A DNA stretch of 64,000 nucleotides, from contig JAFCDX010000001.1 in NCBI GenBank assembly GCA_017609465.1, positions 26,459-90,458 of the forward strand, read 5' to 3'. This document shows, piece by piece, positions 1-35,092 of this stretch. The position numbers were made by a program, and so were the translations under genes. Under the pieces are notes generated by a model, which worked only from the letters and a program-made list of their open reading frames with translations, was not told the DNA's origin and searched no databases. The stretch is from Candidatus Woesearchaeota archaeon (GTDB lineage Archaea > Nanobdellota > Nanobdellia > SCGC-AAA011-G17 > JAFCDX01). Every line of letters starts with the position of its first letter. Position 1 is the first letter of the stretch.

Positions 1-764
1 GCTTTACAGCTTAAATCAAGACATTCATATTCTCCATTTTCATTCTTTCCACAAGTTGTCTGCTCATTAACATAATCACAATTTTCTGCAACGTCTTCTG
101 GATTTCCTGCTGAATCAAACCAATAAACATCATCACTTCCAGGAAGACATCCTTTTTTATGTTGAGGAACAACATCACATATCAAGTTTTGGTCTGAACA
201 ATATCTGTTTTTAAAGAATCCAGTACCACTCAAGTCAGTTCCTGTTTTTAATTCACAATTTGCTCTTGTTGTATATGTGCAAGTATCAGAACTTGTTACA
301 CAACACCCTTTGTCAGAACTTCTTGCCAAAGTAACACATTCTGCCTCATCCTTAATGTTTTCCTTGAACACCATCTCCAAATCAGGATAATTGGAAGTTT
401 CCTTTTTACATCTTGTTTGAGTAACCAATGAAGCTTCATTACCAATTATACAACATCCAACCTGGCATTGAGGCAATTCTTCAGGTGAACCTTCTCCAAA
501 TGAGGTTTGCTCCTGTTCTGCGCATGTTGCCAAAGGCATATTCTCATAACATCTTCCATCTTCAAGACTGAAACAAGTTCCCGGCTTACAAAAAGATGTA
601 AATGCACAGTTAGTCGGAGCGCTCTTTCCTTCTGATGAACATTCAGAGCTGTCAACATACTGGCAAGTATTTCCATCAATAGTTCTCTCACAACATACAG
701 GCTCTGCATTAACAAAATTAATTAAAAATAATAATGCAATTCCAATTAATAATAATCTTTTCAT
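1..764 (-). CDS. Cys-rich secreted giant-protein paralog, N-terminal part only (gene runs off the left edge)
   Basis: ATG at 764 forms an ATGA overlap with the stop of 761..1525. My translation MKRLLLIGIALLFLINFVNAEPVCCERTIDGNTCQYV...QVGCCIIGNEAS...DKGCCVTSSDTCTYTTRANCE...VYWFDSAGN stays open to position 1. It is colinear with the N-terminus of the 1564..4878 protein. Track ORF 446..715 is a wrong-frame fragment. Confidence 0.75.
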   Translation of the reverse strand, partial: MKRLLLIGIALLFLINFVNAEPVCCERTIDGNTCQYVDSSECSSEGKSAPTNCAFTSFCKPGTCFSLEDGRCYENMPLATCAEQEQTSFGEGSPEELPQCQVGCCIIGNEASLVTQTRCKKETSNYPDLEMVFKENIKDEAECVTLARSSDKGCCVTSSDTCTYTTRANCELKTGTDLSGTGFFKNRYCSDQNLICDVVPQHKKGCLPGSDDVYWFDSAGNPEDVAENCDYVNEQTTCGKNENGEYECLDLSCK

Positions 765-1525
765 CCAGTTTCACCTTCTATTGCAAATTGAAAAATATAA
801 TCTGAGTTTCTTTCATTTAATACATATATTTTATCAGGATATTCCTTTTGATCAACAAATATTTCAACTTCTCCTCTGTTAGCAATCATATAAGGTACAC
901 TTAAAAAAACACCATTGTTTGCTTCTTCATTAACTATATCATAAGTTGTATCTAATAATTTTCCCAAAGGATGGTCAATCAATTCAGAGAAATCCTTTAA
1001 TTCTACTCTTTTATCCCCTCTTTTCAAAGCAACAGGATAACTTACTTCCACAAAAACACCATTTTCTCTTATATCAACACTAGATTCAAATTCAGCATCT
1101 TCAATATCAGGAAAGAAATTTAATAATTGTTCTGACATACTTTCAACATCAACACATGAAGGAACTTCTGAATTCAAGTAATCTTCAATTTCTTTTTCAA
1201 CTTCATTCTCAAAAACCATGTTATTCAAACATTCAGGAGCATTTGGAATATTATAACATAAATAATTTACCCTATAACCATTATGCATTCTATAATTTTC
1301 AGGATTTATAGTTCCACCCTGCTTCCCAATTAACTCAGAAACCTCTTCTAATTTCTCCTGAGTGCATGCTTTTGCCTCTCTTTCAATAACATCTATTTTA
1401 TTACCCAAGTAACTTTGAGGATCAATTCCTATCCCAGCCTGTCTTAAAGCGAATATAAGTATTACAACAATCACTATCACCAATCCAATTATCATAAAAG
1501 TAGTTACTTGTCCTCTTTTTTTCAT
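761..1525 (-). CDS. Class III (prepilin-like) signal peptide protein, cassette copy 2
   Basis: The N-terminus MKKRGQVTTFMIIGLVIVIVVILIF has basic residues, then G-Q, then a hydrophobic helix, as in archaeal type IV prepilin signals. It is a paralog of 4871..5644 and 44952..45686. Confidence 0.7.
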   Translation of the reverse strand: MKKRGQVTTFMIIGLVIVIVVILIFALRQAGIGIDPQSYLGNKIDVIEREAKACTQEKLEEVSELIGKQGGTINPENYRMHNGYRVNYLCYNIPNAPECLNNMVFENEVEKEIEDYLNSEVPSCVDVESMSEQLLNFFPDIEDAEFESSVDIRENGVFVEVSYPVALKRGDKRVELKDFSELIDHPLGKLLDTTYDIVNEEANNGVFLSVPYMIANRGEVEIFVDQKEYPDKIYVLNERNSDYIFQFAIEGETG

Positions 1526-1563: not shown

Positions 1564-4500
1564 TTATACATGAACAACATGCAAAGGCATATCATTTCCA
1601 AAGGAATCTCTGCATTGGATGTAATAATTTGACAAGCCCCAATCAGCATAAAATTCATTGTCCACTTTGCTCATTTCTGTTCCTTCTGAGTCAAAACTGA
1701 AATCAGAATCAGAGTATTTGCAGGTAACCTCATTTAAATCCTTTATAATTATTTTTAATTTATTAAAAGAACTGTCATATAACACTTTCTCTAATACTGG
1801 CGCTGTATTATCAATGCTTCCATAAACGCTTATTGAACCTGTAGCTATATTTCCTGCAACATCAACACATCTCACATAATAAGTGTTAATCCCTTCATTA
1901 ACAATTAAATCAGGTTGTGAATGCAACGCACTATGAGAATTGAAAAACTCATCCTGCATACAGCCTTCTGTATCGCATATACTGCTGTAAGAGCATACTG
2001 CATTTCCTGTTTCTGCACCACCAGATGTTTTTGCTTCAAGAGTAATTTCATTTGTGAAACAATTCAATTTTCCTTCTGAATCTGTTCTGCATCTGTCTGA
2101 CAATACATTTACAGAATCCAAATTAAGAGGCTGTGTTTTTGTAATTGTATATTGAACAGGACTATTAACATTTCCTGAATTATCCTTGCATGAAACATAA
2201 AATATATTTGCTCCATCCTGAATTCCTGGAAGAACCCCTTCACATTTTTGCATTTCCAAGTTTGATGAAGGGGTAGCACAAACAAACCTGTTTGTCATTT
2301 GTTCATAAATTATATTTTCATTGCTCCATTTACAACCAGCATCAGCATTTCTTTCATCCACCAATTCATTTACATACAATCCTACATTAACCTCTTCATT
2401 AAAGCTTGCAACATACCAGTTGTTTTTTGGGTCAAATTTCTCTATTATCGGTGGCGTCAAGTCTGGTGCTTCATTTATTGTGAACTTTATTACATAATCT
2501 ACAATGCTTTCCATTCCACTTATTGCATTCTCGCATTTTACATGATATCTATGTGTTTTTCCATCTTCCAAATTATATAATGTTATATTATGTTTATAAC
2601 CTGATCTTCCATTACTAAAACTATTGGAATATACTGGATTTTGAACATCAAACTCATCTCCTTCTTCATAATAACATCTTGATAATAATGGATCACCATA
2701 TTCATTTACTGTTGCAATACCAAAACTAACTTTAGTGTATTCTTTTATTGTTCCTAATATTTCATAGCCTTGAACTCCATTGGATTTTATTCCGCATGTT
2801 CCTGAATAGCATTCAACATCCAATGCACCATTATCTGGTTTTATTAATGGAGGTATTTGGTCTTCTTCTGAAGCTGGAATACATACTGGTCCTTGTGAAG
2901 AATCTCTTATGTATTGGCAACCTGTTCCCAATGAATTACAAGTATATTCATTACACTCATAACCTTCAATTATTTCCCCATTCTTGTCAGGAAGTAATCC
3001 CCCTTCAGATATAGAAGTGTGGCACATTTCACAGTTTTCAGAGCCTGTTGGAGGTCTCCATTTTTGACATGAAGTTGAAACAGTTGTTATGTCATGTTCT
3101 GTTAAAATTTCTAAAATTATATTTACTACAATATAAATTGTTACTGCTATTGCTATTGCAGACAATACAACTCCAAAAGTACTCATCGCACCAAGTCCTG
3201 TTGGACCAAATGCTGTACTCATGCCTTCAATAAAACCAGGACCAAAATTAGGTATTAATGCACCCACAAAATTTTCAACAAAAACTACAGCAGGAGCATT
3301 AGCCGCAGTCCACCACGCAAGACTTTGTATTATCCCATAACCATATAAAGTTGTTAAAGTAACACCTAATGTTCCTAAAGCAAAAGTAAAATCAGCATCA
3401 TTGATTAATTGATCCATCCACTCTGGTTTTTCAAAATATTCTATATAACCCCCAACACCAGAATATTTAAAATCATCACAATTTCCTGTAAGACCCTCAT
3501 AAATATATCTAAGACATTTTTCACCATGGGTTTTTCCACAATTTCTTCTAAAACCCTTATATGAGAAATCACAAGCTACATTATAATCAGCACCACAATC
3601 TCCCATTGCTTTGCACAAAGAATTTGTGTTAATTAAAAACCCACTACTTAATGCTTCTTCGTTTTCAACTATTTCCCAATCTTCTCCAGGCTCTTTTTCC
3701 CAAGCAACTTGCGTAACTACTTCTGCTGCCATACATTCACCCACATCATCATCAGAATAACCAGGAGGATTTAATGGAATGCATCTGTCTGCAATCCAAC
3801 CACAATCTCCCAAGTCAGGATTTTCACATTCTTCTTTATTATAAAAATAACAATTATCATACCTATTATCTTTGCAATAACTAGTTCCCATAACGGTTCC
3901 TGTTTCAGGGTCTGTAACATCAGTATACATGCAAACTTGTTCCCTATAATCATCACAAGGATATGCAATCTCTTCCCCTAAAACACATTCGTGTCTATAG
4001 TGAATAGAACCAGGAAGATCTTTTCCAGGACCTGTAGCACTTTGATAAGAACACCATGATTCACCATGCAGTCTTTCACTTCTCATATCATCCATAAAAG
4101 GATTTTGCCAAATATCACTACAAGTTATATCTCTACAAACATATTCTTCTTCATCACCATTTCCATTTTGATCATTAATATCTGTAGCACACAATTCCCT
4201 GAACTCTTCACATTCTTGTGCCATCTCTTCCTGATTTCCGCATGAATCATACCAATATAAATTATCTTCATCAACTAATCCGCATGCCTTATAAGAATGT
4301 TTTTCACAATCAGAATCATCCAACTGAGAACAATATCTATTATTATTAAAATCTCCCTGTATATTATCACATTGTTCTCTTGTAGTATAAGTAAATGAAC
4401 CATCCCTAACACAACAACCTTTGTCTGCTTTAACGCATTCATAAGTGCAGGTATTTTTATTATTTATATTTGATTTAAAGTTATCAGAACCCATATCAGT

Positions 4501-4878
4501 ACATTGTGCTTCTGTAGATAAAACACAATTAGTGCCTAAAACACAACATCCTTGAGAACATTCTTGAACTTGTGAAAGAGGCCTGTCAAACCATTGTCCT
4601 CCTTCTCCTTCGCATGTTGCTTTAGGAACATTAGAAGAGCATTCATTATCAAGATAACAAGTTCCTAATTTACAAAAAGTGGTATCTGAACAAGACAAAA
4701 CATTTGGAGTAAAAACACTCGTAGAACAAGGATTGTTTGAAGTAGGAGCTTGGCAATATTCATCTCCCACCTGTTCACAACAGCCAACAGCACTTACAGG
4801 TTCTGCACTCAATAAATAAACAGTAAAACTAGTCAAAATTATCAATGTTATTTGGAATATTGCCTTAAATTTATTCAT
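1564..4878 (-). CDS. Giant (1104 aa) Cys-rich envelope protein with signal peptide, GCC repeats, central hydrophobic hairpin and four Ig-like repeats
   Basis: Signal peptide is ...LLSAEPVSA. Three GCC-x-C modules follow. Hydrophobic segments map to about 3085-3405. The motif [YF]Y[VI]xCxDxxGN recurs four times in the C-terminal half. The start overlaps the upstream stop by 8 nt. Confidence 0.85.
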   Translation of the reverse strand: MNKFKAIFQITLIILTSFTVYLLSAEPVSAVGCCEQVGDEYCQAPTSNNPCSTSVFTPNVLSCSDTTFCKLGTCYLDNECSSNVPKATCEGEGGQWFDRPLSQVQECSQGCCVLGTNCVLSTEAQCTDMGSDNFKSNINNKNTCTYECVKADKGCCVRDGSFTYTTREQCDNIQGDFNNNRYCSQLDDSDCEKHSYKACGLVDEDNLYWYDSCGNQEEMAQECEEFRELCATDINDQNGNGDEEEYVCRDITCSDIWQNPFMDDMRSERLHGESWCSYQSATGPGKDLPGSIHYRHECVLGEEIAYPCDDYREQVCMYTDVTDPETGTVMGTSYCKDNRYDNCYFYNKEECENPDLGDCGWIADRCIPLNPPGYSDDDVGECMAAEVVTQVAWEKEPGEDWEIVENEEALSSGFLINTNSLCKAMGDCGADYNVACDFSYKGFRRNCGKTHGEKCLRYIYEGLTGNCDDFKYSGVGGYIEYFEKPEWMDQLINDADFTFALGTLGVTLTTLYGYGIIQSLAWWTAANAPAVVFVENFVGALIPNFGPGFIEGMSTAFGPTGLGAMSTFGVVLSAIAIAVTIYIVVNIILEILTEHDITTVSTSCQKWRPPTGSENCEMCHTSISEGGLLPDKNGEIIEGYECNEYTCNSLGTGCQYIRDSSQGPVCIPASEEDQIPPLIKPDNGALDVECYSGTCGIKSNGVQGYEILGTIKEYTKVSFGIATVNEYGDPLLSRCYYEEGDEFDVQNPVYSNSFSNGRSGYKHNITLYNLEDGKTHRYHVKCENAISGMESIVDYVIKFTINEAPDLTPPIIEKFDPKNNWYVASFNEEVNVGLYVNELVDERNADAGCKWSNENIIYEQMTNRFVCATPSSNLEMQKCEGVLPGIQDGANIFYVSCKDNSGNVNSPVQYTITKTQPLNLDSVNVLSDRCRTDSEGKLNCFTNEITLEAKTSGGAETGNAVCSYSSICDTEGCMQDEFFNSHSALHSQPDLIVNEGINTYYVRCVDVAGNIATGSISVYGSIDNTAPVLEKVLYDSSFNKLKIIIKDLNEVTCKYSDSDFSFDSEGTEMSKVDNEFYADWGLSNYYIQCRDSFGNDMPLHVVHV

Positions 4879-13066: not shown

Positions 13067-14514
13067 ACTATCTTATAAACAAAATCATGCTTTTCAAAAC
13101 ATGAAAGATTATCATATTTTAATTCTTCAATCCCGTTAAATCTCTTAAACTTATCCGAGAAAAATATGTATTTTATGTTATTTTTCTTATATAATCTCAA
13201 TGCCATTTCCGAAGACTCAAGATTTATCATTGCATCAGATTCCAATAATCTTAACGCCGGTCTTGGAGCCAGAAAGAAATTAGTGTCATAAAAATTTTTC
13301 TTTCCACTGAAATAATTTATTGAATGTCCTTCATAAAGGCTTCCAAATATAACATCTTCTCCCTCGGAATCCTCTTTAATCCACTTTAAGGCATCTACTT
13401 CATTCTGTGTTATCGTATTTTCCAATTGCACTTGCGCAATATCCATAGAGGGATAAAAAGATAAAAGTATTATTGCAAAGAACAAGCCAGTAAAGAAATA
13501 TGATTTATATTTCTCCAACTTTGTTATTTTTAAATATTTTACAAAAATTGTTATCGCAAGAGATGCAAACACAGAAGTTAAAATCCCGATAAACATAAGG
13601 GAAGTGTAAAAATCAAGAACATTAAAACTAAGAAATATAGATATTATTAACAACAAGGAACTCATCATATATACAATATCTAATTTTACCTTTCTAAATC
13701 CGTAATAAATTCCTGGAATACCAAGTATTATTGTTATATAACCCAAACCCAGTATTAAACTAAATATATTCAACTGGTTAAAAGTATTAACATATAATGA
13801 TTCAGGGATATTTCTCCACAATATTTCAATTCCATATAACATAATTGCCTCATAAAAAATCATTAGATTTATTATTATTGCAATCAGAAAAGATATTAAC
13901 GCAAGTTTTATTTCGTTTTTTCTTATGTTCTTATCTTCAGTGTATTTAACCAACAGATAAAGTAGCAATGCTAATGAAAATATTATTGAAAAAGGATGAA
14001 GTATTGATAAAAATATGAATAACAATAAGAATTGTATTAAGAATCTTCTGTTTTTAATATTCATAAAACAATAAATCAAGTATAAAATAAGAGGGATAAC
14101 CAGATTATAAATTGATATTTTATTTATCGTTTCTCTGATTATTAATGGGATAAAACCCGATATAAAAGCAGCAAATAGGGCTGATTTTTCATCTTTTACC
14201 AAAAACTTTGAAAGGATATAAACCAATATAACCGTAAGAGACATTAATAATTGTGGAATTATTTTCAGGTAAAACGGTATGAAAGAAAAAATTATTAAAA
14301 AATAATGGAATATCCAATTAAACAACACAGGCCTCCCCCCATAGCTAAGCTCATCATAAGTCATAGGAAAAATATTCTCTTTGATATGCTCTATATTTTT
14401 CAAGTGAAAATATGAAGTATCATCTGAAAATGGTGCAACTGAGAAAGAAAAATATAATCTAAATAACAAAACTACAAAAAATAAGATCATCAAATAAATA
14501 TTATTCCTTTTCAT
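13060..14514 (-). CDS. Polytopic membrane protein, GT-C-like (ArnT/PMT-like) glycosyltransferase candidate
   Basis: 484 aa with about 11-13 hydrophobic helices followed by a soluble C-terminal domain. It overlaps the GT2 gene. Confidence 0.55.
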   Translation of the reverse strand: MKRNNIYLMILFFVVLLFRLYFSFSVAPFSDDTSYFHLKNIEHIKENIFPMTYDELSYGGRPVLFNWIFHYFLIIFSFIPFYLKIIPQLLMSLTVILVYILSKFLVKDEKSALFAAFISGFIPLIIRETINKISIYNLVIPLILYLIYCFMNIKNRRFLIQFLLLFIFLSILHPFSIIFSLALLLYLLVKYTEDKNIRKNEIKLALISFLIAIIINLMIFYEAIMLYGIEILWRNIPESLYVNTFNQLNIFSLILGLGYITIILGIPGIYYGFRKVKLDIVYMMSSLLLIISIFLSFNVLDFYTSLMFIGILTSVFASLAITIFVKYLKITKLEKYKSYFFTGLFFAIILLSFYPSMDIAQVQLENTITQNEVDALKWIKEDSEGEDVIFGSLYEGHSINYFSGKKNFYDTNFFLAPRPALRLLESDAMINLESSEMALRLYKKNNIKYIFFSDKFKRFNGIEELKYDNLSCFEKHDFVYKIVC

Positions 14515-14986
14515 TTTTTAATTTTAGATTGTCTTCAACAACATCAAAGTATTCAAAAAATTTAGGAGTCAATTTCAACAATCTTGTACGTCCGCTTTTC
14601 TCTGATGTTATAAAACCTTCTTCTTTTAGTATTTTAATATGATCGTATGCTTTATTACCCCTTATCTTTATCACTTCAGACTGCAAAACTGGATTTTTGT
14701 AAGCTACAATAGCAAGAGTTTCCTGAGTAGGCCTGTCTAATTCAGTATCAGATAATAAGTTATCGGTAAGATGTAGATATTCCTTTCTAACATTTAACTT
14801 CCATTTTCCTTCATGATTTAAAATATCCAATGAAGAACCTCTTGTTTCATAATCTTTTTTTAAATTTTCAAGGGTTTCTTTTATGAATTCCTCTGATTTT
14901 ATTCCTGTCATATTAGAGATATCGCTAACAGACAAAAACTTACCTGTTATAAATAATATAGCCTCTATTTTATTCTTGTCTTCCAT
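14501..14986 (-). CDS. scpB: Segregation and condensation protein B
   Basis: IEAILFITGKFLSVSDI...PTQETLAIVAYKNPVLQSEVIKIRG... is a ScpB winged-helix pattern. Confidence 0.8.
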   Translation of the reverse strand: MEDKNKIEAILFITGKFLSVSDISNMTGIKSEEFIKETLENLKKDYETRGSSLDILNHEGKWKLNVRKEYLHLTDNLLSDTELDRPTQETLAIVAYKNPVLQSEVIKIRGNKAYDHIKILKEEGFITSEKSGRTRLLKLTPKFFEYFDVVEDNLKLKNEKE

Positions 14987-15032: not shown

Positions 15033-15392
15033 TTATAAACAGGCTCCGTTTGAGCATCCATTCTCACATAATTCAAACCTATAATTCCATATAACATTAT
15101 TTCCTGTACCTTTATTATAATCACAGTAATATTCTTTTACATATTTGCTTGTTTTTCCTGTATCTTTGTTTGATTTTTCAAAGCATATATCTGTTTTATC
15201 ATCATAAGAGACTCCTTTAGAATCTACCCCATAAACAGTTCCCTTTGAAAAAATGTCAACACCCTCATCAGTATCTACACAAGTTGAAGTGCTTACTTGC
15301 TTTCCTGTAACGCTTCCAAAAAATCCAGAATACGCAAATACAGATAGAACTAATATGATTAATATTCCTATTAATATCTCTTTATTATCCAT
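15033..15392 (-). CDS. Small secreted Cys6 protein, tandem paralog 4
   Basis: Leader ends ...SGFFGSVTGK, then CVDTDEG...DICF...EYYC...CENGCSNGACL-stop. Confidence 0.75.
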   Translation of the reverse strand: MDNKEILIGILIILVLSVFAYSGFFGSVTGKQVSTSTCVDTDEGVDIFSKGTVYGVDSKGVSYDDKTDICFEKSNKDTGKTSKYVKEYYCDYNKGTGNNVIWNYRFELCENGCSNGACL

Positions 15393-15451
15393 TTTAAATT
15401 AATAGTTTAAGAACTTATAAAACTTTCTAAAGAAAATAAAAAATAAAAAAT

Positions 15452-15775
15452 TTATAAGCATGCTCCGTTTGAACAGCCCTCGTCGCAAAGTACCATTTCA
15501 GATTTCCATCCAGATTCTGTCATTTTATCACATCTATATTCTTTAAGGTAACTTGAATCCTCTACAGAACAATAATCTACCATTGGACCGAAATCTTGTC
15601 CATTGTTAGAAGTTCCACTTACGCTACCTTTTACATATACATTTCCACCGTCAGTATCTGTACACTGCCATGTGGTTGCCTTTCCTGTTGTTCCTGAAAA
15701 AACACCTGTTGAGAATAAGACTGCTACAACAAGCAATACTACAAGCCCTATAATAACCATATCTTTGTTATCCAT
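15452..15775 (-). CDS. Small secreted Cys6 protein, tandem paralog 3
   Basis: Leader ends ...TGVFSGTTGK, then CTDTDGG...DYC...EYRC...CDEGCSNGACL-stop. Confidence 0.75.
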   Translation of the reverse strand: MDNKDMVIIGLVVLLVVAVLFSTGVFSGTTGKATTWQCTDTDGGNVYVKGSVSGTSNNGQDFGPMVDYCSVEDSSYLKEYRCDKMTESGWKSEMVLCDEGCSNGACL

Positions 15776-15823
15776 ATTAATAATTTAAACTTACTTTTAT
15801 ATATAAACTTTTCTAAATAAGGT

Positions 15824-16168
15824 TTATAGACAAGCTCCTGCTCTGCAACCATTTTCACAAAATACTCTGTTTCTTTTGTAACCCGATGCAATATAAGGAT
15901 CGCAAGTGTATTCAATTACCCATTTTCCATTATCCTTGTAATCTAGGGAACAAAAATCTTCATCATTAAAAAATTCTCTTTTAGATGAACCATCCACTGT
16001 TATATATCCTTTAATTTTTGATTGTTCAGCAAGACTAGGATTTGAGTCAGAATCAAAACATCCATGAGATATTTGTTTTCCAGTAATATCACTAAAGAAA
16101 CCTGCATAAGATAACACACCAATTGCAAACACAAGAATTATTCCTATAAAAATATTTTTTGAATTCAT
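15824..16168 (-). CDS. Small secreted Cys6 protein, tandem paralog 2
   Basis: Leader ends ...AGFFSDITGK, then CFDSDSN...DFC...EYTC...CENGCRAGACL-stop. I prefer ATG 16168 (ATGA overlap with the upstream stop) over the TTG at 16174. Confidence 0.75.
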   Translation of the reverse strand: MNSKNIFIGIILVFAIGVLSYAGFFSDITGKQISHGCFDSDSNPSLAEQSKIKGYITVDGSSKREFFNDEDFCSLDYKDNGKWVIEYTCDPYIASGYKRNRVFCENGCRAGACL

Positions 16169-16512
16169 AAACAAGCACCATCCTTACATCCATTTTCACA
16201 GTAAACAAGTTCAGACTTCCAGTTTTCTGTTGTAGTTATATCACATTTGTATTCCTTCAAATAATCTGGTCTTGAGTTATCACAATAATCTATTTTTGGT
16301 TCTAAATCTCTCCTACAATTATCTGTAACAAAATTTACTCTTCCTTTAACATAAATATTTCCTTGATCTGTGTCTTCACAAGAAGCAGAACAAAAACCAC
16401 TTACTTTTCCAGTTACCCATACAAATGCACCTGAAGTATAAAACAATGAAAAGAATAATACTACAACAAGAACAATGAACAGCTTCCTGTTTACTCCATG
16501 AATATTAACCAT
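16165..16512 (-). CDS. Small secreted Cys6 protein, tandem paralog 1
   Basis: Leader ends ...SGAFVWVTGK, then CEDTDQG...DYC...EYKC...CENGCKDGACL-stop. Confidence 0.75.
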   Translation of the reverse strand: MVNIHGVNRKLFIVLVVVLFFSLFYTSGAFVWVTGKVSGFCSASCEDTDQGNIYVKGRVNFVTDNCRRDLEPKIDYCDNSRPDYLKEYKCDITTTENWKSELVYCENGCKDGACL

Positions 16513-16531: not shown

Positions 16532-16541
16532 TATATTTAAA
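16532..16541 (-). promoter_or_regulatory. TATATTTAAA box 20 nt upstream of the ATG at 16512
   Basis: Same motif and spacing as at 6935, 17658 and 21192. Confidence 0.5.
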
Positions 16542-16546
16542 TATTT

Positions 16547-17638
16547 CTATCTTATTGGATATCTCAAAAGTGCTGCAATTCCACCCAAATCCTGCAATTG
16601 TTTCCCCTCTCTTGTTTCTGTAGAAATAATTCTTACTTCTGTTCTGAATTTGTCTGCTTCGTTTTCAAGATTTTCTATTTCTTTGTCATCCATTGAATCA
16701 GACAATAATAAAATGTCAACTGCACCCAATTCTAATGCTTTAATAGTTTCTTCTCTTCCATAAGTTATTTTAGCTTCTTCTTTTGCAAATGTTTCAAAAA
16801 ATTTCTGCATTATTTGTTTTTCAAGTGCAATTTCTTCTTCTGCTAAAAGCTCTTGTGATTTGTCAACCAATTCATTTAACCCAAATTCTCCTGTATAAGA
16901 TAAATCCTTTACACCAATTATTTTATTTTTTAATTGATTGTTAAGATAATTTCCGTCAATAAACATTTCTTTTGTTGGACCTGGACCCCCTATTATTATT
17001 CCCTTTAAATCAGGGTTATTCAGAAATTCCTTGTTTGCTGCCTCTCCTATTCTCTTGAAAAATTCATGTGTTGCTTCTTCTCTTAATCTTGCGTAACGTT
17101 GTTGTGATTGGCCTCCTTTTGTTGTTTTTCCTGGAACTCCTGAAGTCATGTGGAATAATTCCTCTATGTTTGTTCCTTTTAATAGTCCTATATTTCCTTC
17201 TCTTCTATCAAGAACTATCAAACCAAAAACTTCCTTTACTTCAATTAGTTCCTTTAAAGGTTCTAATAAAAATGTCTGGTCGCATCTGTAAATTCTCAGA
17301 TTTAAAGGTTCTGGAGGCTCAACACTAAATACTTTTATATCCACTTTGCTTTCTTTGTCAGAAATGTCTCCTGAGAATACTGCAAGGCCATTTTCAGGTG
17401 TTTTCTTAAAAGTTCTTAGATGTTGTATCATTTTTTCAATAGAATCAATTACTTTTGTTCTTGTATTCTTATCCTTAATGTTTTCTGCAGTTCCTTGTTC
17501 TTGTGCCAAATGCTGTATTATTTTGATAATATCATATCCAGGGGGAATATAAACAGAAACCAATTCAGTATGTCTTCCTTTTACTTTCTCCAATTCCATA
17601 ATGAATCTTCTTAATTTGTGTCTTTCTTTTATGTTCAT
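16547..17638 (-). CDS. prf1: Peptide chain release factor aRF1
   Basis: Has the GGQ motif (KGGQSQQRYARL) and YRCDQTF (YxCxxxF). The NIKS position reads NIKD. Length is 363 aa. Confidence 0.9.
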   Translation of the reverse strand: MNIKERHKLRRFIMELEKVKGRHTELVSVYIPPGYDIIKIIQHLAQEQGTAENIKDKNTRTKVIDSIEKMIQHLRTFKKTPENGLAVFSGDISDKESKVDIKVFSVEPPEPLNLRIYRCDQTFLLEPLKELIEVKEVFGLIVLDRREGNIGLLKGTNIEELFHMTSGVPGKTTKGGQSQQRYARLREEATHEFFKRIGEAANKEFLNNPDLKGIIIGGPGPTKEMFIDGNYLNNQLKNKIIGVKDLSYTGEFGLNELVDKSQELLAEEEIALEKQIMQKFFETFAKEEAKITYGREETIKALELGAVDILLLSDSMDDKEIENLENEADKFRTEVRIISTETREGKQLQDLGGIAALLRYPIR

Positions 17639-17672: not shown

Positions 17673-18266
17673 TTATTGGGAGATTCCCTGAAAGAAATCC
17701 AAAAATCTATTCCATGTAGATGTACTTACACAATATTCTCCTTTGCAAATATTACTTTCACATTCAAAATCATTTTCACATTGTTCTTCCTCAGCTTTTT
17801 GGTCTAATACATCTCCGGAGACATCACAATATTTTCCTTCAAATCTTATCCCTATATTTATACAACTATTATCATAAAAACACCCATCACATATTTCCTT
17901 TAAATTACTATTATATTCTTCTTCTGTAACTATATCTTGTGTGCTCTCTTGAGTATTTGTGTTATCATCATCTCCATTACCACCATTACCCCCAGAACTT
18001 CTGCAAAATCCATCTTCACAAAAATATCCTGCTCCACAAGGAGGATCACATTCTTCTAATTCTTCTTCAACTTCATCGTTTTGAGACTCGCTTGTTGGTG
18101 TTGCTATTGATTCTGAACTACTTGGTGTTGAATTATCATATGAAGAATAACCGCTTTCCGAATTATCCGAGATATACTTATCTACCTTATCATCTACAGA
18201 ATCATCCCTACATCCCGATATAAAGAAAACAATTACTAAAATTAATATAACATATTTTATTTTCAT
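17673..18266 (-). CDS. Lipobox-bearing secreted protein with C-terminal Cys-rich module
   Basis: MKIKYVILILVIVFFISGC has a lipobox-like ISGC. The last ~75 aa align with the C-terminus of the 967-aa protein. ATG 18266 is preferred over TTG 18275. Confidence 0.7.
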   Translation of the reverse strand: MKIKYVILILVIVFFISGCRDDSVDDKVDKYISDNSESGYSSYDNSTPSSSESIATPTSESQNDEVEEELEECDPPCGAGYFCEDGFCRSSGGNGGNGDDDNTNTQESTQDIVTEEEYNSNLKEICDGCFYDNSCINIGIRFEGKYCDVSGDVLDQKAEEEQCENDFECESNICKGEYCVSTSTWNRFLDFFQGISQ

Positions 18267-18267
18267 T

Positions 18268-21171
18268 TTAACCAAAAATATTTCTAAACCATGCTAAAAA
18301 TTTTCTCCATGCACCTGAACTTACACATTCTCCATCAACACAAAGATTGCTTTGACATTCAAAATTATTTATACAATAAGAACCTTCTCCTTTTTGAGTA
18401 TACATCTCTCCACTTAAAGAACAATATCTTCTTCCTAATTTAGTACCAACATTTAAGCATTTTTTATTATAAACACATCCATTACATTCTCTTTTCATAT
18501 ATTCTATTTCTGTTATTGTTTCGGAGGTATCTCCCCCTTGGGTTATATTTGTTTTTTCTGTTGTAGTTTGAGTTATATTCTCTTCAGAAGCAGTTATATT
18601 CACTTCTTCTGTAGTTGTAATAATTACTTCTTGTAATTTTGGACATCCTTTAATATAAACATCTGCAGTTGCTGGATTTTGTAAAGAAGTTATTTTTAAA
18701 TCTCCATCATCTTTTGTATAAATTTGTGCAAAAGTACCATAGTCTGTTCTACCAACATAAGTATAAAAAGAATTGTCATTTAATTGTTCCATCCTTATAT
18801 TATCTCCTAATACTCTTGAATCTGAATTTTTAAATTCAATCTCATCATCTACAGAATCATACTTAAATTCTATTTGGAAACTTGTTAAATCAACTTCTGG
18901 AATAGTCCCTATTTGACCTTCAATAAATTGTAAATTACAATTATGATCAAATAATAATCTTTTATTATATTTACCCACATAAGTCGGTTTACTGAATCCA
19001 GATTCTTCATCATTAATATTATCAAATATAATTTTTTTATTAATGTCGTCAAAGGTTAATTTTAGATTATTATTTATATCATAAAAGGATGTTACAGCTC
19101 TATTAATATATTGTATATCACTATATACTTCTCCTGTATCAATAATCTTAAATGAAGTTTGGTTTTCATATTCATTTATTTCTGTAATTTCCACAAGATG
19201 TGAAATATCATCAAATGTCATAACAAATCTTGTTCCAGCCATATTTTTAAAAATTGTATCATTAGATCCAACTTCACCTGCATATAATTCATCTCCATTA
19301 TTTACTGCCATCAAATGTTTTCTGTCTTTACCATATGTTATTTTATCATTTTGATTCAAGAAACAAATAACTTCATTATCTAGTAAATCTCCCTCTTTAT
19401 TCTCCATTTTTAAATAAACTTTGTCTGATACTATATCTATATATATCTCTGATTTTGGTTCCTGGTTTACTTTATCAAATTTAATATAATATGAATTAAA
19501 TACTGGGTCTTTGACATAGAAACCTGGAGCTAACCACATATTGTCTCTAGGTGTATATGAAATAGTAATCATTTTTAATCCTGGACTTGTTATAGAAGGT
19601 TGTGTATTCCCCTCTTCTGTACCATAAATAAATGCTTCAGTACCATCAATCTCTTCATTGTTTACTCTTACTTTTCTTCCATCATTTATTTCTATCTTTT
19701 TAGCACCAATAGCAATTTCACATATATCATTATCAACAGTTACTGCTGAAACTACATCTGTAATTCCAATTACTGTTCCATCAGACATTGTTTTTATCTG
19801 TCCTTTATCAATTTGATAAGTTACATTATCATATTTAACAATACATTTAGTTTCTGCATCATCAACATCAAGTACAGTTATCCCTTTAAATGGATTATTC
19901 TGAACCAATGTAGCAATTATATCCCCTCCTAATAAAGTAATTCCCTGAACATCTCCATAATCTGAAGGAATATGAGCATCAATAATAGTATAAATATTTC
20001 TCAATATTTCCAATTTTGTATTTATTATGTCATCCCTATTTTTTACATCTATAGGAGAACCAGTTATTTTTAAAGTATAGTTCCATGCATAAGTATTAGA
20101 TGATAAATATAAATAATCATTTGAAGGATCTCCAAGTCTGTCTCCAGATGTGTCTCTATCAAATTTCCAAACCAATGTTTTTATATCAGAATCTGGAATG
20201 CCCCCAAAATCTATTGTCTGGCTATAATCATGTTCACCTATGTTTGTTCCTTCATCATCATTAAATGTTTGGTCTGCTAATAATTCTAATTCATTATCTG
20301 TTATTTGAGAATCTATCTCCGAAGCTTGTTCATTTAAATTCCATTCGTCCCCTGCTTTTTTAATTTGATAAACATCGTTTGATATCACCCCTCCGCAAGT
20401 TGGTTCTTTAGGAGGAACTTCTAGTTTTATTAATTCTTTTATACAAGCACCATCTTTACAACCAATTGGACATTTATAATTATGATCGAATCTCAAAGTA
20501 TTATTACTACAATAAAATTCTGCTATACTTGGTCCTTTTTCTTGAGGAACCTCATTATAAATACCATCATAACAAAAATCTTCTTTTTCTAAATATGTGC
20601 CTTCATAATTTTTTCCTTTAGTAACTCCTTTTTTATAATAATCTAACCCTCCATCAGAATCAACACATTCTATAAGTTCTTCACAATCTTCTGGACAACT
20701 TTTTGCACTTTCTGGACATGTACTTCCAACCATTGCAGTTGTAGTTCTTTGACAAACACCATCCCCACATTTGTCTTCACATGTAGAACCTGGATTAAGA
20801 ACTATTTGTGGACCTTCTTTACAAGCTCCATTCTCACAACCAAATTCACATATAATTTCTTCACCAGCACCTTGCCTTCCATCACAATAATATTCCAAAA
20901 CACTACCTTCAGAAGTACAAATATCCTCTTTAGTTACTTTTTGATATCTTGAAAAACTAAAATAACTAGATCTTTCATAATATGTAATTGTTCCAAATAT
21001 TTCGGGATTTTTTCCGCCATCAAAATCTCTACATAAATAACTACCAAAATAACTTGTTCTATCAGAATCATAAGCAATTTGTTTTCCAGTAAATATATCT
21101 AAAAAACCAGCATTAACAATAGAAATCATAAATAAAGATAGAATAAATATTATTAACACCTTCTTTTTCAT
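18268..21171 (-). CDS. Large (967 aa) secreted protein with TGK leader, two Cys6 domains and a shared C-terminal Cys-rich module
   Basis: Leader is ...NAGFLDIFTGK. The two domains end CEFGCENGACK and CPIGCKDGACI. The C-terminus is CNGCVYNKKC...NNFECQSNLCVDGECVSSGAWRKFLAWF. Confidence 0.85.
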   Translation of the reverse strand: MKKKVLIIFILSLFMISIVNAGFLDIFTGKQIAYDSDRTSYFGSYLCRDFDGGKNPEIFGTITYYERSSYFSFSRYQKVTKEDICTSEGSVLEYYCDGRQGAGEEIICEFGCENGACKEGPQIVLNPGSTCEDKCGDGVCQRTTTAMVGSTCPESAKSCPEDCEELIECVDSDGGLDYYKKGVTKGKNYEGTYLEKEDFCYDGIYNEVPQEKGPSIAEFYCSNNTLRFDHNYKCPIGCKDGACIKELIKLEVPPKEPTCGGVISNDVYQIKKAGDEWNLNEQASEIDSQITDNELELLADQTFNDDEGTNIGEHDYSQTIDFGGIPDSDIKTLVWKFDRDTSGDRLGDPSNDYLYLSSNTYAWNYTLKITGSPIDVKNRDDIINTKLEILRNIYTIIDAHIPSDYGDVQGITLLGGDIIATLVQNNPFKGITVLDVDDAETKCIVKYDNVTYQIDKGQIKTMSDGTVIGITDVVSAVTVDNDICEIAIGAKKIEINDGRKVRVNNEEIDGTEAFIYGTEEGNTQPSITSPGLKMITISYTPRDNMWLAPGFYVKDPVFNSYYIKFDKVNQEPKSEIYIDIVSDKVYLKMENKEGDLLDNEVICFLNQNDKITYGKDRKHLMAVNNGDELYAGEVGSNDTIFKNMAGTRFVMTFDDISHLVEITEINEYENQTSFKIIDTGEVYSDIQYINRAVTSFYDINNNLKLTFDDINKKIIFDNINDEESGFSKPTYVGKYNKRLLFDHNCNLQFIEGQIGTIPEVDLTSFQIEFKYDSVDDEIEFKNSDSRVLGDNIRMEQLNDNSFYTYVGRTDYGTFAQIYTKDDGDLKITSLQNPATADVYIKGCPKLQEVIITTTEEVNITASEENITQTTTEKTNITQGGDTSETITEIEYMKRECNGCVYNKKCLNVGTKLGRRYCSLSGEMYTQKGEGSYCINNFECQSNLCVDGECVSSGAWRKFLAWFRNIFG

Positions 21172-21191
21172 ATAATTTTTAAGGAATCTTT

Positions 21192-21201
21192 TATATTTAA
21201 A
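21192..21201 (-). promoter_or_regulatory. TATATTTAAA box 21 nt upstream of the ATG at 21171
   Basis: Recurrent motif at fixed spacing. Confidence 0.5.
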
Positions 21202-21206
21202 TATTA

Positions 21207-22022
21207 CTAAAATTTATAATTTACATTAAAACCTAATTTTTTTCCATCAAATATTAAATCAAAATCCAAATCTTTTTCTTTATTGAAATCAACTTCTTTC
21301 CCTAAGGCTCTTTGAAAATGATTTTTAATCTCTTTCCTGTCTAAATATAAATCAAATAATTCAGCACCAATTAGTATTCCATAGACAGTATCTTTAGAAA
21401 TATCATATTCTTCTGATATATTATTAACAAAATCTTCATAATCTAAATACTCATTATTTCCATTAAAAAAATGATTTCTTGCACCAATTGCTATCTGATA
21501 AGGCATATCAAATCTTGATAATAAAGCATAAGTTGATGTGAAAGGTTCTAATTTTTTTGGAATTTTATTTTGTTTCATTAAATAATTAAGAACTTCATAA
21601 TTTGTTCTTGTAGCTATTGAACTTCCAACATTCAAAAGAGCATCTTGATCATTTGATAATTTAACATCATCTTTATAACTAAAACTAGCAACTTTTTCAT
21701 TTGTTATTGTTGTATCTAATTTAATATTATCTAAACCATAGGCTTCTGCTATTGCCATATGACCCAATTCATGGATATAAGTTGTCATAAAATATCCCAA
21801 AGCAGAATTTAAGGCAATTTCAGGCAAACTTATCTCTGGACCATATTCTTTTTTTAAACTATTAAATCTATTTTCTAAACTAATATTTTGAACTTTTTCT
21901 GTTTTATGTTGATTTATATAATTAGAAATATCTGTTTTTGCTAAAGATGGACTTGCTAATGTAATTCCAGCTAAAGCTGTTGCTACACCTTTTTTTATCC
22001 TTCTTTTTAAGTTCTTTTTCAT
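21207..22022 (-). CDS. Putative secreted zinc metalloprotease (HExxH)
   Basis: Has a basic N-terminus plus hydrophobic signal (GVATALAGITLASPSLA) and a single HELGH motif. The family is not assignable by eye. Confidence 0.55.
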   Translation of the reverse strand: MKKNLKRRIKKGVATALAGITLASPSLAKTDISNYINQHKTEKVQNISLENRFNSLKKEYGPEISLPEIALNSALGYFMTTYIHELGHMAIAEAYGLDNIKLDTTITNEKVASFSYKDDVKLSNDQDALLNVGSSIATRTNYEVLNYLMKQNKIPKKLEPFTSTYALLSRFDMPYQIAIGARNHFFNGNNEYLDYEDFVNNISEEYDISKDTVYGILIGAELFDLYLDRKEIKNHFQRALGKEVDFNKEKDLDFDLIFDGKKLGFNVNYKF

Positions 22023-34714: not shown

Positions 34715-35092
34715 ATGGCAAAATTCAGAAATATAGTAAAATATACTGGCCTGGATAAACTAACCCTTCTTGAAAAGATTAAACTAAAAAATATAGCAGA
34801 ATCAAAATATTCCAAGATAAGCAGATTATTCCAAGATAAACCTGCAGATGTGTCTATAAATGTAAAAATATATGATAAAGAGAAAAAAAGAAAATATTCC
34901 CTACATGGAAAAGTGGAAGCAGCAACAAGAATATTTTCTGCAAGCGCTTCTGACTGGGATATAAAGAAAACTACTCATGAGGTGATGGACAAACTGGAAA
35001 GCGAGGTAAAAAAACAGTTTAAACCACAAACCAAAGAATGGAGAAGAAAAGGCGGTTTTAAGAATTTTATAGCAGAAAAATTTTCTAAATGA
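34715..35092 (+). CDS. Small basic protein, possible HPF/RaiA (S30AE)-like fold
   Basis: Coding looks solid because its stop is coupled to the next ATG. The function rests on the pattern VSINVKIY...LHGKVEAATRIFSASASDWDIKKTTHEVMDKLESEVKKQFK and is weak. Confidence 0.4.
   Translation: MAKFRNIVKYTGLDKLTLLEKIKLKNIAESKYSKISRLFQDKPADVSINVKIYDKEKKRKYSLHGKVEAATRIFSASASDWDIKKTTHEVMDKLESEVKKQFKPQTKEWRRKGGFKNFIAEKFSK

What the first reader, a model, noticed from the sequence alone, without database searches (positions are those of the whole stretch)
15033..16512. Tandem array of four small secreted Cys6 paralogs ending in C-x-x-G-C-x-x-G-A-C-L-stop
Four consecutive 107-119-aa genes share one plan. Each has an N-terminal hydrophobic leader, then C-x-D-[TS]-D-x-[GN], then D-x-C, then E-Y-x-C, and finally C-[ED]-x-G-C-x-x-G-A-C-L as the last residues. 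That gives six conserved Cys, with the same final four residues GACL in all four. Paralogs 1 and 2 are coupled by an ATGA overlap. The same domain occurs twice at the N-terminus of the 967-aa protein (about 20440-21035, ending CEFGCENGACK and CPIGCKDGACI). There are therefore six copies in five neighbouring genes, interrupted only by aRF1 and a lipoprotein gene. Local expansion of a small disulfide-rich domain is typical of surface recognition or toxin/effector-like families. I cannot name the domain.
Basis: seen in the sequence. Interest (0 to 1): 0.62.

Follow-up and report, generated by a model that had tools for sequence, protein, structure and literature searches.

The report
Tandem small exported Cys6-domain genes
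Four neighbouring genes of a small-genome (DPANN-type) archaeon each encode a leader peptide plus one copy of a very widespread extracellular six-cysteine domain that neither Pfam nor NCBIfam models; elsewhere this domain is strung as 4-25 beads in large surface proteins, so the array is real, but its job at the cell surface is inferred, not shown.

Summary
There are four minus-strand genes (115, 114, 107 and 119 aa). Each has a hydrophobic leader, an x-T-G-K motif and a 70-82 aa domain with six invariant Cys that ends GACL-stop. Genes 1 and 2 overlap by ATGA. The 967-aa neighbour carries two more copies, and an HMM finds exactly six copies in the window.

The domain has no Pfam, NCBIfam or PDB-sequence match, yet it is a large family. 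An exhaustive profile search found 4956 cluster representatives (1477 at E<=1e-10). Most fetched members are secreted or lipoprotein-type proteins with 4-8 tandem copies (up to 25) joined by ~7-aa linkers. Named members come from many DPANN archaeal phyla, and one sits on a bacterial contig.

Across 1374 distinct copies the six Cys are at least 99.3% conserved, and three Asp and one Glu are 92-98% conserved. AlphaFold2 gives a confident all-beta model (pLDDT 94.7) with no Foldseek match in the PDB.

The four small genes are an old tandem-duplicated subfamily. Two related genomes keep it with different gene content, and ortholog comparisons point to purifying rather than diversifying selection. 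My best reading is exported, disulfide-locked and probably Ca2+-stabilised surface modules. A toxin or effector role is not supported. This is a new domain family, not a new mechanism.

The parts
16165..16512 (-). Paralog 1 (W1), 115 aa. Leader and motif (MVNIHGVNRK-LFIVLVVVLFFSLFYTSGAFVWV-TGK) at nt 16512-16381. Cys6 domain at nt 16380-16168. It has 8 Cys in total and ends GACL-stop.
   Evidence: (E 4e-30); ortholog in L001 69% identical and in L010 64-66% identical
15824..16168 (-). Paralog 2 (W2), 114 aa from the ATG at 16168. Its start overlaps the stop of W1 (ATGA, 16165-16168). Cys6 domain at nt 16060-15827. This is the most divergent copy (C-F-D-S-D-S-N in place of C-x-D-x-D-G-G).
   Evidence: (E 4e-32); ortholog in L001 52% identical with the same 4-nt overlap
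15452..15775 (-). Paralog 3 (W3), 107 aa. Cys6 domain at nt 15664-15455. This is the most conserved member: 85% identical in L001 and 79% in L010.
   Evidence: (E 7e-32); the structure model was built on this copy
15033..15392 (-). Paralog 4 (W4), 119 aa. Cys6 domain at nt 15281-15036, with longer loops. It is absent from L001. A 45%-identical counterpart is in L010.
   Evidence: (E 5e-31)
16532..16549 (-). Archaeal BRE/TATA-like box TAGAAATATTTAAATATA, about 19 nt upstream of the W1 ATG. It starts on the aRF1 stop codon. This is the promoter of the W1-W2 pair.
   Evidence: conserved in L001 and L010; motif 9 times in the window against 1.4 expected, so a generic promoter of this genome
15798..15815 (-). 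BRE/TATA-like box TAGAAAAGTTTATATATA upstream of W3.
15414..15429 (-). BRE/TATA-like box TAGAAAGTTTTATAAG upstream of W4. A T-rich tract follows the W3 stop.
20818..21042 (-). Cys6 domain copy B1 in the 967-aa surface protein (aa 44-118). It follows the signal peptide and the FLDIFTGK motif.
   Evidence: (domain E 1.5e-21)
20440..20676 (-). Cys6 domain copy B2 in the 967-aa surface protein (aa 166-244).
   Evidence: (domain E 2e-21)
18268..21171 (-). 967-aa exported protein. In order: signal peptide, x-T-G-K motif, two Cys6 domains, about 600 aa of unknown region, a Thr/Glu-rich linker with NIT sequons, and a C-terminal Cys-rich module ending in an amphipathic helix (nt 18510-18271). It is context for the array, not part of it.

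Best explanation
The four genes encode small exported proteins of the cell envelope or surface of a DPANN-type archaeon. Each consists of an N-terminal Sec-type hydrophobic leader and a conserved [aliphatic]-T-G-K junction. I read that junction as the signal-peptidase site (-3 aliphatic, -1 Gly), or alternatively as the point where an uncleaved signal anchor leaves the membrane. After it comes one acidic (pI 4.1-4.8) 70-82 aa all-beta domain.

I infer that the domain is locked by three disulfides formed by six invariant Cys. I also infer that it is stabilised by a divalent cation, most likely Ca2+, held by four nearly invariant acidic residues: the D-x-D of C-x-D-x-D-G-G, the D of D-x-C and the E of E-Y-x-C.

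The same domain is the repeating bead of hundreds of large DPANN surface proteins. There, 4-25 copies with ~7-aa linkers carry or accompany Kazal, PEGA, TSP3, S-layer-C, peptidase-like and glycosidase-like parts. The domain therefore most likely works as a rigid, protease-resistant extracellular scaffold or adhesion unit with variable loops. The four single-bead proteins are minimal free or membrane-tethered versions of it.

The array arose by old tandem duplication and is transcribed from three generic promoters: W1 and W2 translationally coupled, W3 alone and W4 alone.

Shown: gene structure, domain homology and family size, Cys and acidic-residue conservation, the confident all-beta model, the extracellular architecture of relatives, and the purifying-selection trend.

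Inferred: disulfide bonding, metal binding, leader cleavage, and the scaffold or adhesion role.
For: Gene and domain anatomy.

Family size: 4956 representatives at E<=1e-3 and 1477 at E<=1e-10 among 1.84 billion.

Repeat architecture: 4-8 copies is typical, up to 25, with a median linker of 7 aa.

Conservation over 1374 distinct copies: six Cys 99.3-99.9%, D 92% (plus E 8%), D 97%, D 98%, E 97%, and three Gly 92-97%.

Structure: AF2 pLDDT 94.7, pTM 0.80, all-beta.

Extracellular context: signal peptides or lipoboxes at the N-termini of relatives. Co-occurring Kazal, PEGA, TSP_3, S_layer_C, Kre9_KNH and MopE-motif domains reach Pfam's thresholds; Peptidase_M10 and GH43/BNR_2 hits are below threshold. 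SecY is in the window.

Selection: ortholog dN/dS 0.07-0.33.

Subfamily origin: W1-W4 and their orthologs are mutual nearest neighbours. Arrays also exist in L001 and L010.

Transcription: promoter boxes conserved in three genomes.

Charge: the mature domains are acidic.
Against: No experimental or expression data exist, and no public run holding the locus could be listed.

The tools do not return model coordinates, so I could not verify clustering of the four acidic residues or the disulfide map. The only hint is that Cys4 and Cys6 are lost together in 6 copies.

The motif D-x-D-G-G is not the canonical DxDxDG calcium loop.

The n-regions of W3 and W4 (MDNKD, MDNKE) are not net positive, and the hydrophobic stretches are 16-23 aa, which is long for cleaved signal peptides.

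The W3 leader is more conserved than its domain (2-3 changes in 37 residues against 14-20 in 70; Fisher p 0.05 and 0.014). That pattern fits a retained, functional membrane helix better than a discarded signal peptide.

Single-domain relatives elsewhere share no conserved gene neighbourhood that would point to a function.
Confidence: 0.6

Rival explanations
1. Ca2+-dependent lectin-like binding modules. The domain binds glycans or S-layer components of the host cell or of the archaeon's own envelope through the invariant acidic site. The four paralogs would differ in ligand specificity through their variable loops.
For: Four invariant acidic residues sit on a rigid scaffold with highly variable, length-variable loops. 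One relative (P0058) has weak, below-threshold GH43 and BNR_2 hits, and another (P0008) a below-threshold Peptidase_M10 hit; L003's large protein looks like a peptidase on reading. Glycosyltransferase genes (PMT_2, GT2) lie downstream of the array in the window and in L001.
Against: There is no sequence or fold similarity to any known lectin or CBM. The conserved residues are equally well explained by a purely structural metal site. Tandem arrays of 6-25 copies with 7-aa linkers look more like a stalk than like multivalent binding, although the two are not exclusive.
Confidence: 0.15
2. Secreted toxins, antimicrobial peptides or effector-like small cysteine-rich proteins acting on host or competitor cells.
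For: The proteins are small (mature size about 8-9 kDa), exported, disulfide-rich and tandemly duplicated.
Against: Orthologs trend towards purifying rather than diversifying selection, and W3 is as conserved as aRF1. The domain is mainly a structural repeat of large proteins. No immunity, transporter or processing gene is adjacent; the neighbours are aRF1, ScpB and glycosyltransferases. The domain has no Foldseek match to knottins or other toxin folds and no hits in phage or viral collections.
Confidence: 0.1
3. Pilin-like or otherwise membrane-anchored subunits. The N-terminal hydrophobic helix is retained and mediates membrane anchoring or assembly, as in type IV pilins, which have a conserved N-terminal helix, a variable beta head with disulfides and tandem paralogs.
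For: The hydrophobic stretch is 16-23 aa and lies right at the N-terminus behind a 4-10 aa n-region. The leader of W3 (and of W1 in the L010 comparison) is more conserved than the domain. In some relatives the x-T-G-K motif follows an obvious uncleaved anchor, for example P0207 and P0236.
Against: There is no [KR]-[GA] class III cleavage motif before the hydrophobic stretch (read directly from the sequences). The same T-G-K motif follows ordinary Sec signal peptides in the 967-aa protein and many relatives. No prepilin peptidase or assembly ATPase was seen among the window ORFs scanned (the scan was partial). Leaders of W2 and W4 are not conserved.
Confidence: 0.1
4. Protease inhibitors analogous to Kazal domains.
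For: Many relatives carry a genuine N-terminal Kazal domain and are named 'Kazal-type serine protease inhibitor family protein' by NCBI. Small disulfide-rich domains are typical inhibitors.
Against: The Kazal hit is a separate 40-aa domain that precedes the repeats. Profile-profile comparison of the Cys6 domain with those Kazal domains gives probability 0.3%. No Kazal hit appears for any of 46 Cys6 copies.
Confidence: 0.04

Closest known systems
Calcium-binding EGF-like (cbEGF) repeats of eukaryotic extracellular proteins (fibrillin, Notch). This is a functional analogy from general knowledge, not a homology claim.
   Same: Both are small extracellular modules with six Cys (three disulfides in cbEGF). 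Both have a conserved acidic motif at the N-terminal end of the module and occur as long tandem arrays with short linkers. The C-terminal C-x-x-G-C-x-x-G-x-C hairpin is reminiscent of EGF-like hairpins.
   Different: The domain here is 65-80 aa rather than about 45 aa, and has five main strands plus a hairpin. It has no EGF or EGF_CA Pfam hit above noise and no Foldseek match. The acidic motif is C-x-D-x-D-G-G plus a distant D and E. Disulfides and Ca2+ binding are not shown here.
Kazal-domain lipoproteins of Micrarchaeota ('Kazal-type serine protease inhibitor family protein' in NCBI annotation)
   Same: These proteins are true members of the same Cys6-repeat family: 6-9 Cys6 copies follow the Kazal domain.
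   Different: The name refers only to their N-terminal 40-aa Kazal domain, and the Cys6 repeats themselves are unannotated. The window proteins have no Kazal domain.
Generic prokaryotic surface-repeat modules (PKD, Big, CARDB, PEGA)
   Same: All are beads-on-a-string beta modules of exported proteins that carry enzymatic or adhesive parts. PEGA co-occurs in the same proteins.
   Different: Those are Ig-like or beta-sandwich folds without conserved disulfides. None of their Pfam models hits the Cys6 domain.
Thrombospondin type 3 / MopE-type Cys- and Asp-rich metal-binding motifs
   Same: All are Asp-rich, Cys-containing extracellular motifs. TSP_3 and the MopE motif occur in some of the same proteins.
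   Different: In those proteins they hit separate regions, not the Cys6 repeats. None of the 46 Cys6 copies matches them.

Membership tests
Uncurated 'C-x-D-x-D-G-G ... G-A-C' Cys6 beta-domain family (defined here) | Full-length match to the family profile: six Cys plus D, D, G, G, D, E and G at fixed columns | tested here: met
   All six window copies score E 1e-21 to 1e-32. The columns are conserved at 92-99.9% in 1374 copies.
Uncurated 'C-x-D-x-D-G-G ... G-A-C' Cys6 beta-domain family (defined here) | Exported or extracellular location (signal peptide, lipobox or anchor upstream) | tested here: inconclusive
   Hydrophobic leaders are present in all five window proteins and in relatives. No signal-peptide predictor or experiment was available, so cleavage against anchoring is unresolved.
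Kazal-type inhibitor domain (PF00050/PF07648) | Match to the Pfam models, or profile similarity to Kazal domains | tested here: not met
   No Kazal hit for the window proteins or for 46 domain copies. hhalign probability is 0.3%. Kazal hits in relatives lie at aa ~3-70, before the repeats.
Kazal-type inhibitor domain (PF00050/PF07648) | Alpha+beta fold with a central helix (general knowledge) | tested here: not met
   The AF2 model is all-beta with no helix.
Archaeal type IV pilin-like proteins (class III signal peptide) | [KR]-[GA] cleavage motif immediately before the hydrophobic N-terminal helix | tested here: not met
   The n-regions read MDNKE/, MDNKD/, MNSKN/ and ...VNRK/, with no G or A at -1.
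Archaeal type IV pilin-like proteins (class III signal peptide) | Prepilin peptidase and assembly ATPase/platform genes in the genome | tested here: inconclusive
   None were found among about 25 window ORFs scanned against Pfam. The rest of the genome was not available.
Inhibitor cystine knot / knottin toxins | 25-40 aa knotted three-disulfide fold | tested here: not met
   The domain is 65-80 aa. Foldseek against the PDB gives a best E of 2.3 and TM <= 0.33, with no knottin among the hits. Weak local knottin-like hits belong to the unrelated C-terminal module of the 967-aa protein.
DxDxDG-type calcium-binding loops / cbEGF | Canonical D-x-[DN]-x-[DN]-G loop or D-x-[DN]-E-C consensus; measured Ca2+ binding | not testable with these tools
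   The motif here is C-x-D-[ST]-D-G-G, which is not the canonical pattern. No coordinates or binding assay were available, so metal binding is an inference from four invariant acidic residues.
Any solved structure (PDB) | Sequence or fold match | tested here: not met

The most novel reading that the evidence does not exclude
The Cys6 domain is a genuinely new fold and the main building block of the DPANN cell surface. Three elements travel with it: the post-leader motif (F-S-D-F-W-x-K-I-T-G-K in full form), the Cys6 repeats, and the C-terminal Cys-knot plus amphipathic-helix module. Together they could define a lineage-specific system for exporting, anchoring and displaying the proteins that mediate attachment of these episymbiotic archaea to their hosts. 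The four conserved single-bead proteins would then be membrane-tethered docking or adaptor units of that system.
Probability: 0.15. Interest if true: 0.7.

Novelty: new variant of a known kind. Interest (0 to 1): 0.45.

Why it matters
DPANN archaea have tiny genomes and depend on contact with other cells, yet most of their surface proteins are annotated 'hypothetical'. This finding puts a name-ready, very large domain family behind many of them. The family has about 5000 cluster representatives, near-perfect Cys and acidic-residue conservation, and a confident model with no PDB match.

A curated profile would annotate thousands of proteins. The 70-aa single-domain versions in this window are convenient minimal constructs for solving the structure and for testing disulfide bonding, metal binding and ligand binding.

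It does not by itself reveal a new mechanism.

Tried and rejected
- Pfam and NCBIfam scans of the window proteins, of 46 diverse domain copies and of large relatives found no family covering the domain.
- PDB sequence searches with two profiles found nothing.
- Foldseek against the PDB and BFVD found nothing significant.
- A word-indexed homolog search with a single paralog or with the diverse alignment returned only a handful of small proteins. The exhaustive profile search and a search with a consensus-like multi-repeat protein were needed to reach the family.
With the subfamily alignment it gave only two distant Woesearchaeota loci.
- I rejected a Kazal relationship and a relationship between the Cys6 domain and the C-terminal module (hhalign 5.9%).
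- dN/dS among paralogs is uninformative because synonymous sites are saturated (pS 0.58-0.70). Ortholog values are usable only as a trend.
- No public sequencing run holding the locus could be listed, so there is no expression evidence.
- The sigma-70 promoter and intrinsic-terminator scan is irrelevant for an archaeon and was at chance level.
- There were no matches in phage records or IMG/VR.
- Five literature searches (DPANN or Woesearchaeota with cysteine-rich, Kazal, disulfide, secreted; Bilamarchaeum) found no description of the domain.
- The C-terminal tail of the single-domain relative P0159 matched no PEF-CTERM or sortase-signal model.
- Gene neighbourhoods of single-domain relatives showed no shared context.
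Full report
**Observation.** The window is AT-rich (about 30% G+C) and archaeal. It encodes aRF1, a class I LysRS, Cbf5, a fused PriS-PriL primase, SecY and a ribosomal-protein cluster.

Four minus-strand ORFs lie between aRF1 (16547-17638) and ScpB (14501-14986). They are W1 at 16512-16165 (115 aa), W2 at 16168-15824 (114 aa from its ATG), W3 at 15775-15452 (107 aa) and W4 at 15392-15033 (119 aa).

Each starts with a short n-region, followed by 16-23 hydrophobic residues. Next comes a junction G-[FVA]-F-x-x-x-T-G-K, and 4-8 residues later a 70-82 aa domain. The domain pattern is C-x-D-[ST]-D ... K-G ... D-x-C ... E-Y-x-C ... C-[ED]-x-G-C-x-x-G-A-C-L-stop.

W1 and W2 overlap by ATGA (16165-16168), and locus L001 has the same 4-nt overlap. 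The 967-aa protein (21171-18268) carries the domain at aa 44-118 and 166-244. A profile of the six copies finds exactly these six in the six-frame translation of the window, at E 1e-21 to 1e-32, and the next hit has E about 1.

**Transcription.** A box TAGAAA-nn-TTTA[AT]ATA ends 19-24 nt upstream of the ATG of W1, W3 and W4. It is conserved at the orthologous positions in two other genomes. The motif occurs 9 times in the window against 1.4 expected, including upstream of the 967-aa and 271-aa genes. It is therefore the organism's generic BRE/TATA promoter.

From the known spacing of archaeal TATA boxes, the transcripts should be leaderless or nearly so. The array is thus three transcription units: the W1-W2 coupled pair, W3 alone and W4 alone.

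**What the domain is.** Pfam-A, NCBIfam and PDB sequences give nothing for the window proteins or for 46 diverse copies.

An exhaustive profile search of 1.84 billion cluster representatives gives 4956 proteins at E<=1e-3, 1477 at E<=1e-10 and 109 at E<=1e-30. The top hits are large proteins with many matched stretches, up to 22.

In the 251 relatives fetched, 4-8 copies per protein is typical and 25 is the maximum. The median linker is 7 aa, the repeats cover a median 58% of the protein, and 55 proteins end exactly at the end of a copy.

Over 1374 distinct copies the six Cys are each 99.3-99.9% conserved. The two Asp of C-x-D-x-D are 92% (plus 8% Glu) and 97% conserved. The Asp of D-x-C is 98% conserved, the Glu of E-Y-Y-C 97%, and three Gly 92-97%. 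Everything else, including loop lengths, varies. The only recurrent joint loss of cysteines is Cys4 with Cys6 (6 copies), a weak hint that these two pair.

AlphaFold2 on the W3 domain with a 46-sequence alignment gives pLDDT 94.7 and pTM 0.80. The model is an all-beta domain of five main strands plus a C-terminal hairpin. Foldseek finds no match in the PDB (best E 2.3, TM <= 0.33) or in BFVD.

**Who has it and with what.** Named relatives come from Micrarchaeota/Bilamarchaeaceae, Diapherotrites, Aenigmarchaeota, Altiarchaeota, Pacearchaeota and Nanoarchaeota. The nearest species-representative genome loci are labelled Candidatus Woesearchaeota. One member lies on a contig with GreA, which marks it as bacterial. 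No phage or viral-contig match was found.

N-termini are signal peptides or lipoboxes. Parts that accompany the repeats and reach Pfam's or NCBIfam's thresholds are:
- a genuine N-terminal Kazal domain, which explains the NCBI name 'Kazal-type serine protease inhibitor family protein' although it lies before the repeats;
- PEGA, TSP_3, S_layer_C and Kre9_KNH;
- MopE-type motifs and the eight-cysteine cluster.

Weaker, below-threshold hits are Peptidase_M10, GH43 and BNR_2. Profile-profile comparison excludes homology of the Cys6 domain to those Kazal domains (0.3%). The domain is therefore a common extracellular module of DPANN surface proteins that Pfam and NCBIfam do not model.

**History of the array.** W1-W4 and their orthologs are each other's best BLAST hits among about 1380 copies. 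The two copies of the 967-aa protein are closer to generic family members. So the four small genes form one tandem-duplicated subfamily, and the 'six copies' are not one expansion.

Gene content differs between genomes:
- L001 (GCA_975850245.1) has aRF1, W1, W2, an unrelated 106-aa gene, W3 and ScpB. It has no W4, and it lacks the 271-aa/967-aa/200-aa block.
- L010 has W1-like, W3-like and W4-like genes next to rpS7/S12.

The duplications therefore predate these lineages, and W1 and W3 are the constant members.

Ortholog dN/dS (Nei-Gojobori) is 0.13-0.19 for W1, 0.33 for W2, 0.07-0.26 for W3 and 0.32 for W4. The neighbours give 0.07 (aRF1), 0.03 (ScpB) and 0.28 (ValRS). dS is near saturation, so these values show only a trend. 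W3 is 85% identical between the window and L001, more than aRF1 at 81%. Nothing suggests diversifying selection, and paralog comparisons are saturated.

**Leader and junction.** Within the window the x-T-G-K motif occurs only in the five Cys6 proteins. In relatives a longer form...V-S-A-(S)-G-F-S-D-F-W-x-K-I-T-G-[KNRH]-[AV], follows an ordinary signal peptide. In a few (P0207, P0236) T-G-[KR] follows an obvious uncleaved anchor.

[I/V/T]-T-G followed by K fits the -3/-1 rule for signal peptidase I (general knowledge). Cleavage there would leave mature proteins of about 75-88 aa.

Against simple cleavage, the hydrophobic stretches are long, the n-regions of W3 and W4 are not basic, and the W3 leader is better conserved than its domain (Fisher p 0.05 and 0.014). 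Whether the leader is removed or retained as a membrane anchor remains open.

**Mechanism.** I commit to the following.
- *Step 1, strongly suggested by the sequence:* the proteins are exported through Sec.
- *Step 2, inferred from near-invariant Cys and extracellular context:* the domain folds into a compact beta module cross-linked by three disulfides.
- *Step 3, inferred from four invariant acidic residues and not verifiable without coordinates:* a divalent cation, probably Ca2+, is bound by the D/D/D/E set.
- *Step 4, inferred from architecture:* the module acts as a rigid extracellular scaffold or contact unit with variable loops. The single-bead proteins are free or membrane-tethered minimal versions.

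Rivals are a Ca2+-dependent lectin function (compatible, 0.15), a toxin or effector (0.10), pilin-like or anchored assembly subunits (0.10) and a protease inhibitor (0.04).

**Comparison with the known.** In working principle the closest analogue is the cbEGF repeat: six Cys, an N-terminal acidic calcium site and rigid tandem arrays. Membership is excluded by size, by the predicted strand pattern and by the absence of any EGF hit. It is not a Kazal domain, not a knottin, not a class III signal (pilin-type) protein and not any Pfam or NCBIfam family.

**Verdict.** The feature is real and correctly described. It is an unannotated but very large extracellular domain family of DPANN archaea, with a probably new small fold. 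In this window it appears in an unusual form, as four separately encoded single-domain genes.

It is a new domain family within a familiar kind of system (disulfide-rich surface repeats), not a new mechanism. The toxin/effector idea is not supported. Interest is moderate at 0.45.

Noticed in passing
window 16381-16512, 16061-16168, 15665-15775, 15282-15392, 21081-21171 (all minus strand); relatives P0079, P0102, P0184, P0195, P0222, P0225, P0036, P0043: A conserved motif lies between the hydrophobic leader and the first domain. In the window it reads G-[FVA]-F-x-x-x-T-G-K. In many relatives it is the longer F-S-D-F-W-x-K-I-T-G-[KNRH]-[AV]. It is present in 32-36 of the 251 fetched family proteins and, within the window, only in the five Cys6 proteins. 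It could be the signal-peptidase site or a lineage-specific sorting or anchoring signal. I found no name for it.
   Followed up: partly
window 18271-18510 (967-aa protein) and 17676-17915 (200-aa lipoprotein), minus strand: The two proteins share an ~80-aa C-terminal module (41% identity, E 6e-22). Its pattern is C-x-G-C ... G-Y-R ... Y-C ... C-x-N-N-F-E-C-x-S-N-x-C-x4-C, followed by an amphipathic helix W-x-K-F-L-x-W-F-x-x-x-F-G-stop. It sits at the extreme C-terminus of 28 of the 251 Cys6-family proteins and co-occurs with the N-terminal motif more often than chance (14 against about 4 expected, p 1e-6; shared ancestry is not excluded). AF2 gives pLDDT 87.7. Pfam has no match, and Foldseek gives only weak local knottin-like hits (E > 0.3). 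It is a candidate membrane-associating anchor.
   Followed up: partly
window 15665-15775 (W3 leader) compared with 15455-15664 (W3 domain): The 37-aa leader of W3 is 92-95% identical between genomes while the domain is 71-80% identical. dN is 0.02-0.04 for the leader against 0.13-0.22 for the domain. This is unusual for a signal peptide that is simply cleaved off. W1 shows the same pattern in the L010 comparison (82% against 56%) but hardly in L001 (70% against 68%); W2 and W4 show the opposite.
   Followed up: partly
window 17673-22022 compared with L001 5731-5732: The three-gene block is absent from the related genome L001, where ValRS directly abuts aRF1. The block comprises a 271-aa exported protein with an HELGH motif, the 967-aa surface protein and the 200-aa lipoprotein. 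It is therefore a variable surface-protein island.
   Followed up: no
window 761-1525, 1564-4878, 38098-39915 (minus strand): Three further exported, very Cys-rich proteins are present: 254 aa with 25 Cys, 1104 aa with 66 Cys and a 'CCE' start to the mature part, and 605 aa with 28 Cys. None has a Pfam match and none contains the Cys6 domain. The organism invests heavily in disulfide-rich surface proteins.
   Followed up: no
window about 20680-20815 (967-aa protein, aa 119-165) and about 17990-18070 (lipoprotein): A short Cys-rich linker motif lies between the two Cys6 copies (C-E-D-K-C-G-D-G-V-C-Q ... C-P-E-S-A-K-S-C-P-E-D-C). A similar C-D-P-P-C-G-A-G-Y-F-C-E-D-G-F-C occurs in the lipoprotein. 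It looks like a separate mini-module.
   Followed up: no
L001 7616-7936: An unrelated 106-aa ORF with no Cys6 domain sits inside the array of the related genome, between the W2 and W3 orthologs. The window has only a 48-nt spacer at that position.
   Followed up: no
window 45689-46915 (minus) and 35089-36504 (plus): A single 408-aa protein hits both the small and the large primase subunit models, so it is a fused PriS-PriL. A 471-aa protein has two lamin-tail (LTD) domains.
   Followed up: no
P0159 (locus L004 1226-1588): A single-domain relative from a Nanoarchaeota MAG has a signal peptide and one Cys6 domain. Its C-terminal tail, E-I-P-E-F followed by a hydrophobic stretch and R-K-R, looks like a sorting or tail-anchor signal. 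No NCBIfam model matched it (best hit LPXTG_anchor at E 0.38, below cutoff).
   Followed up: partly
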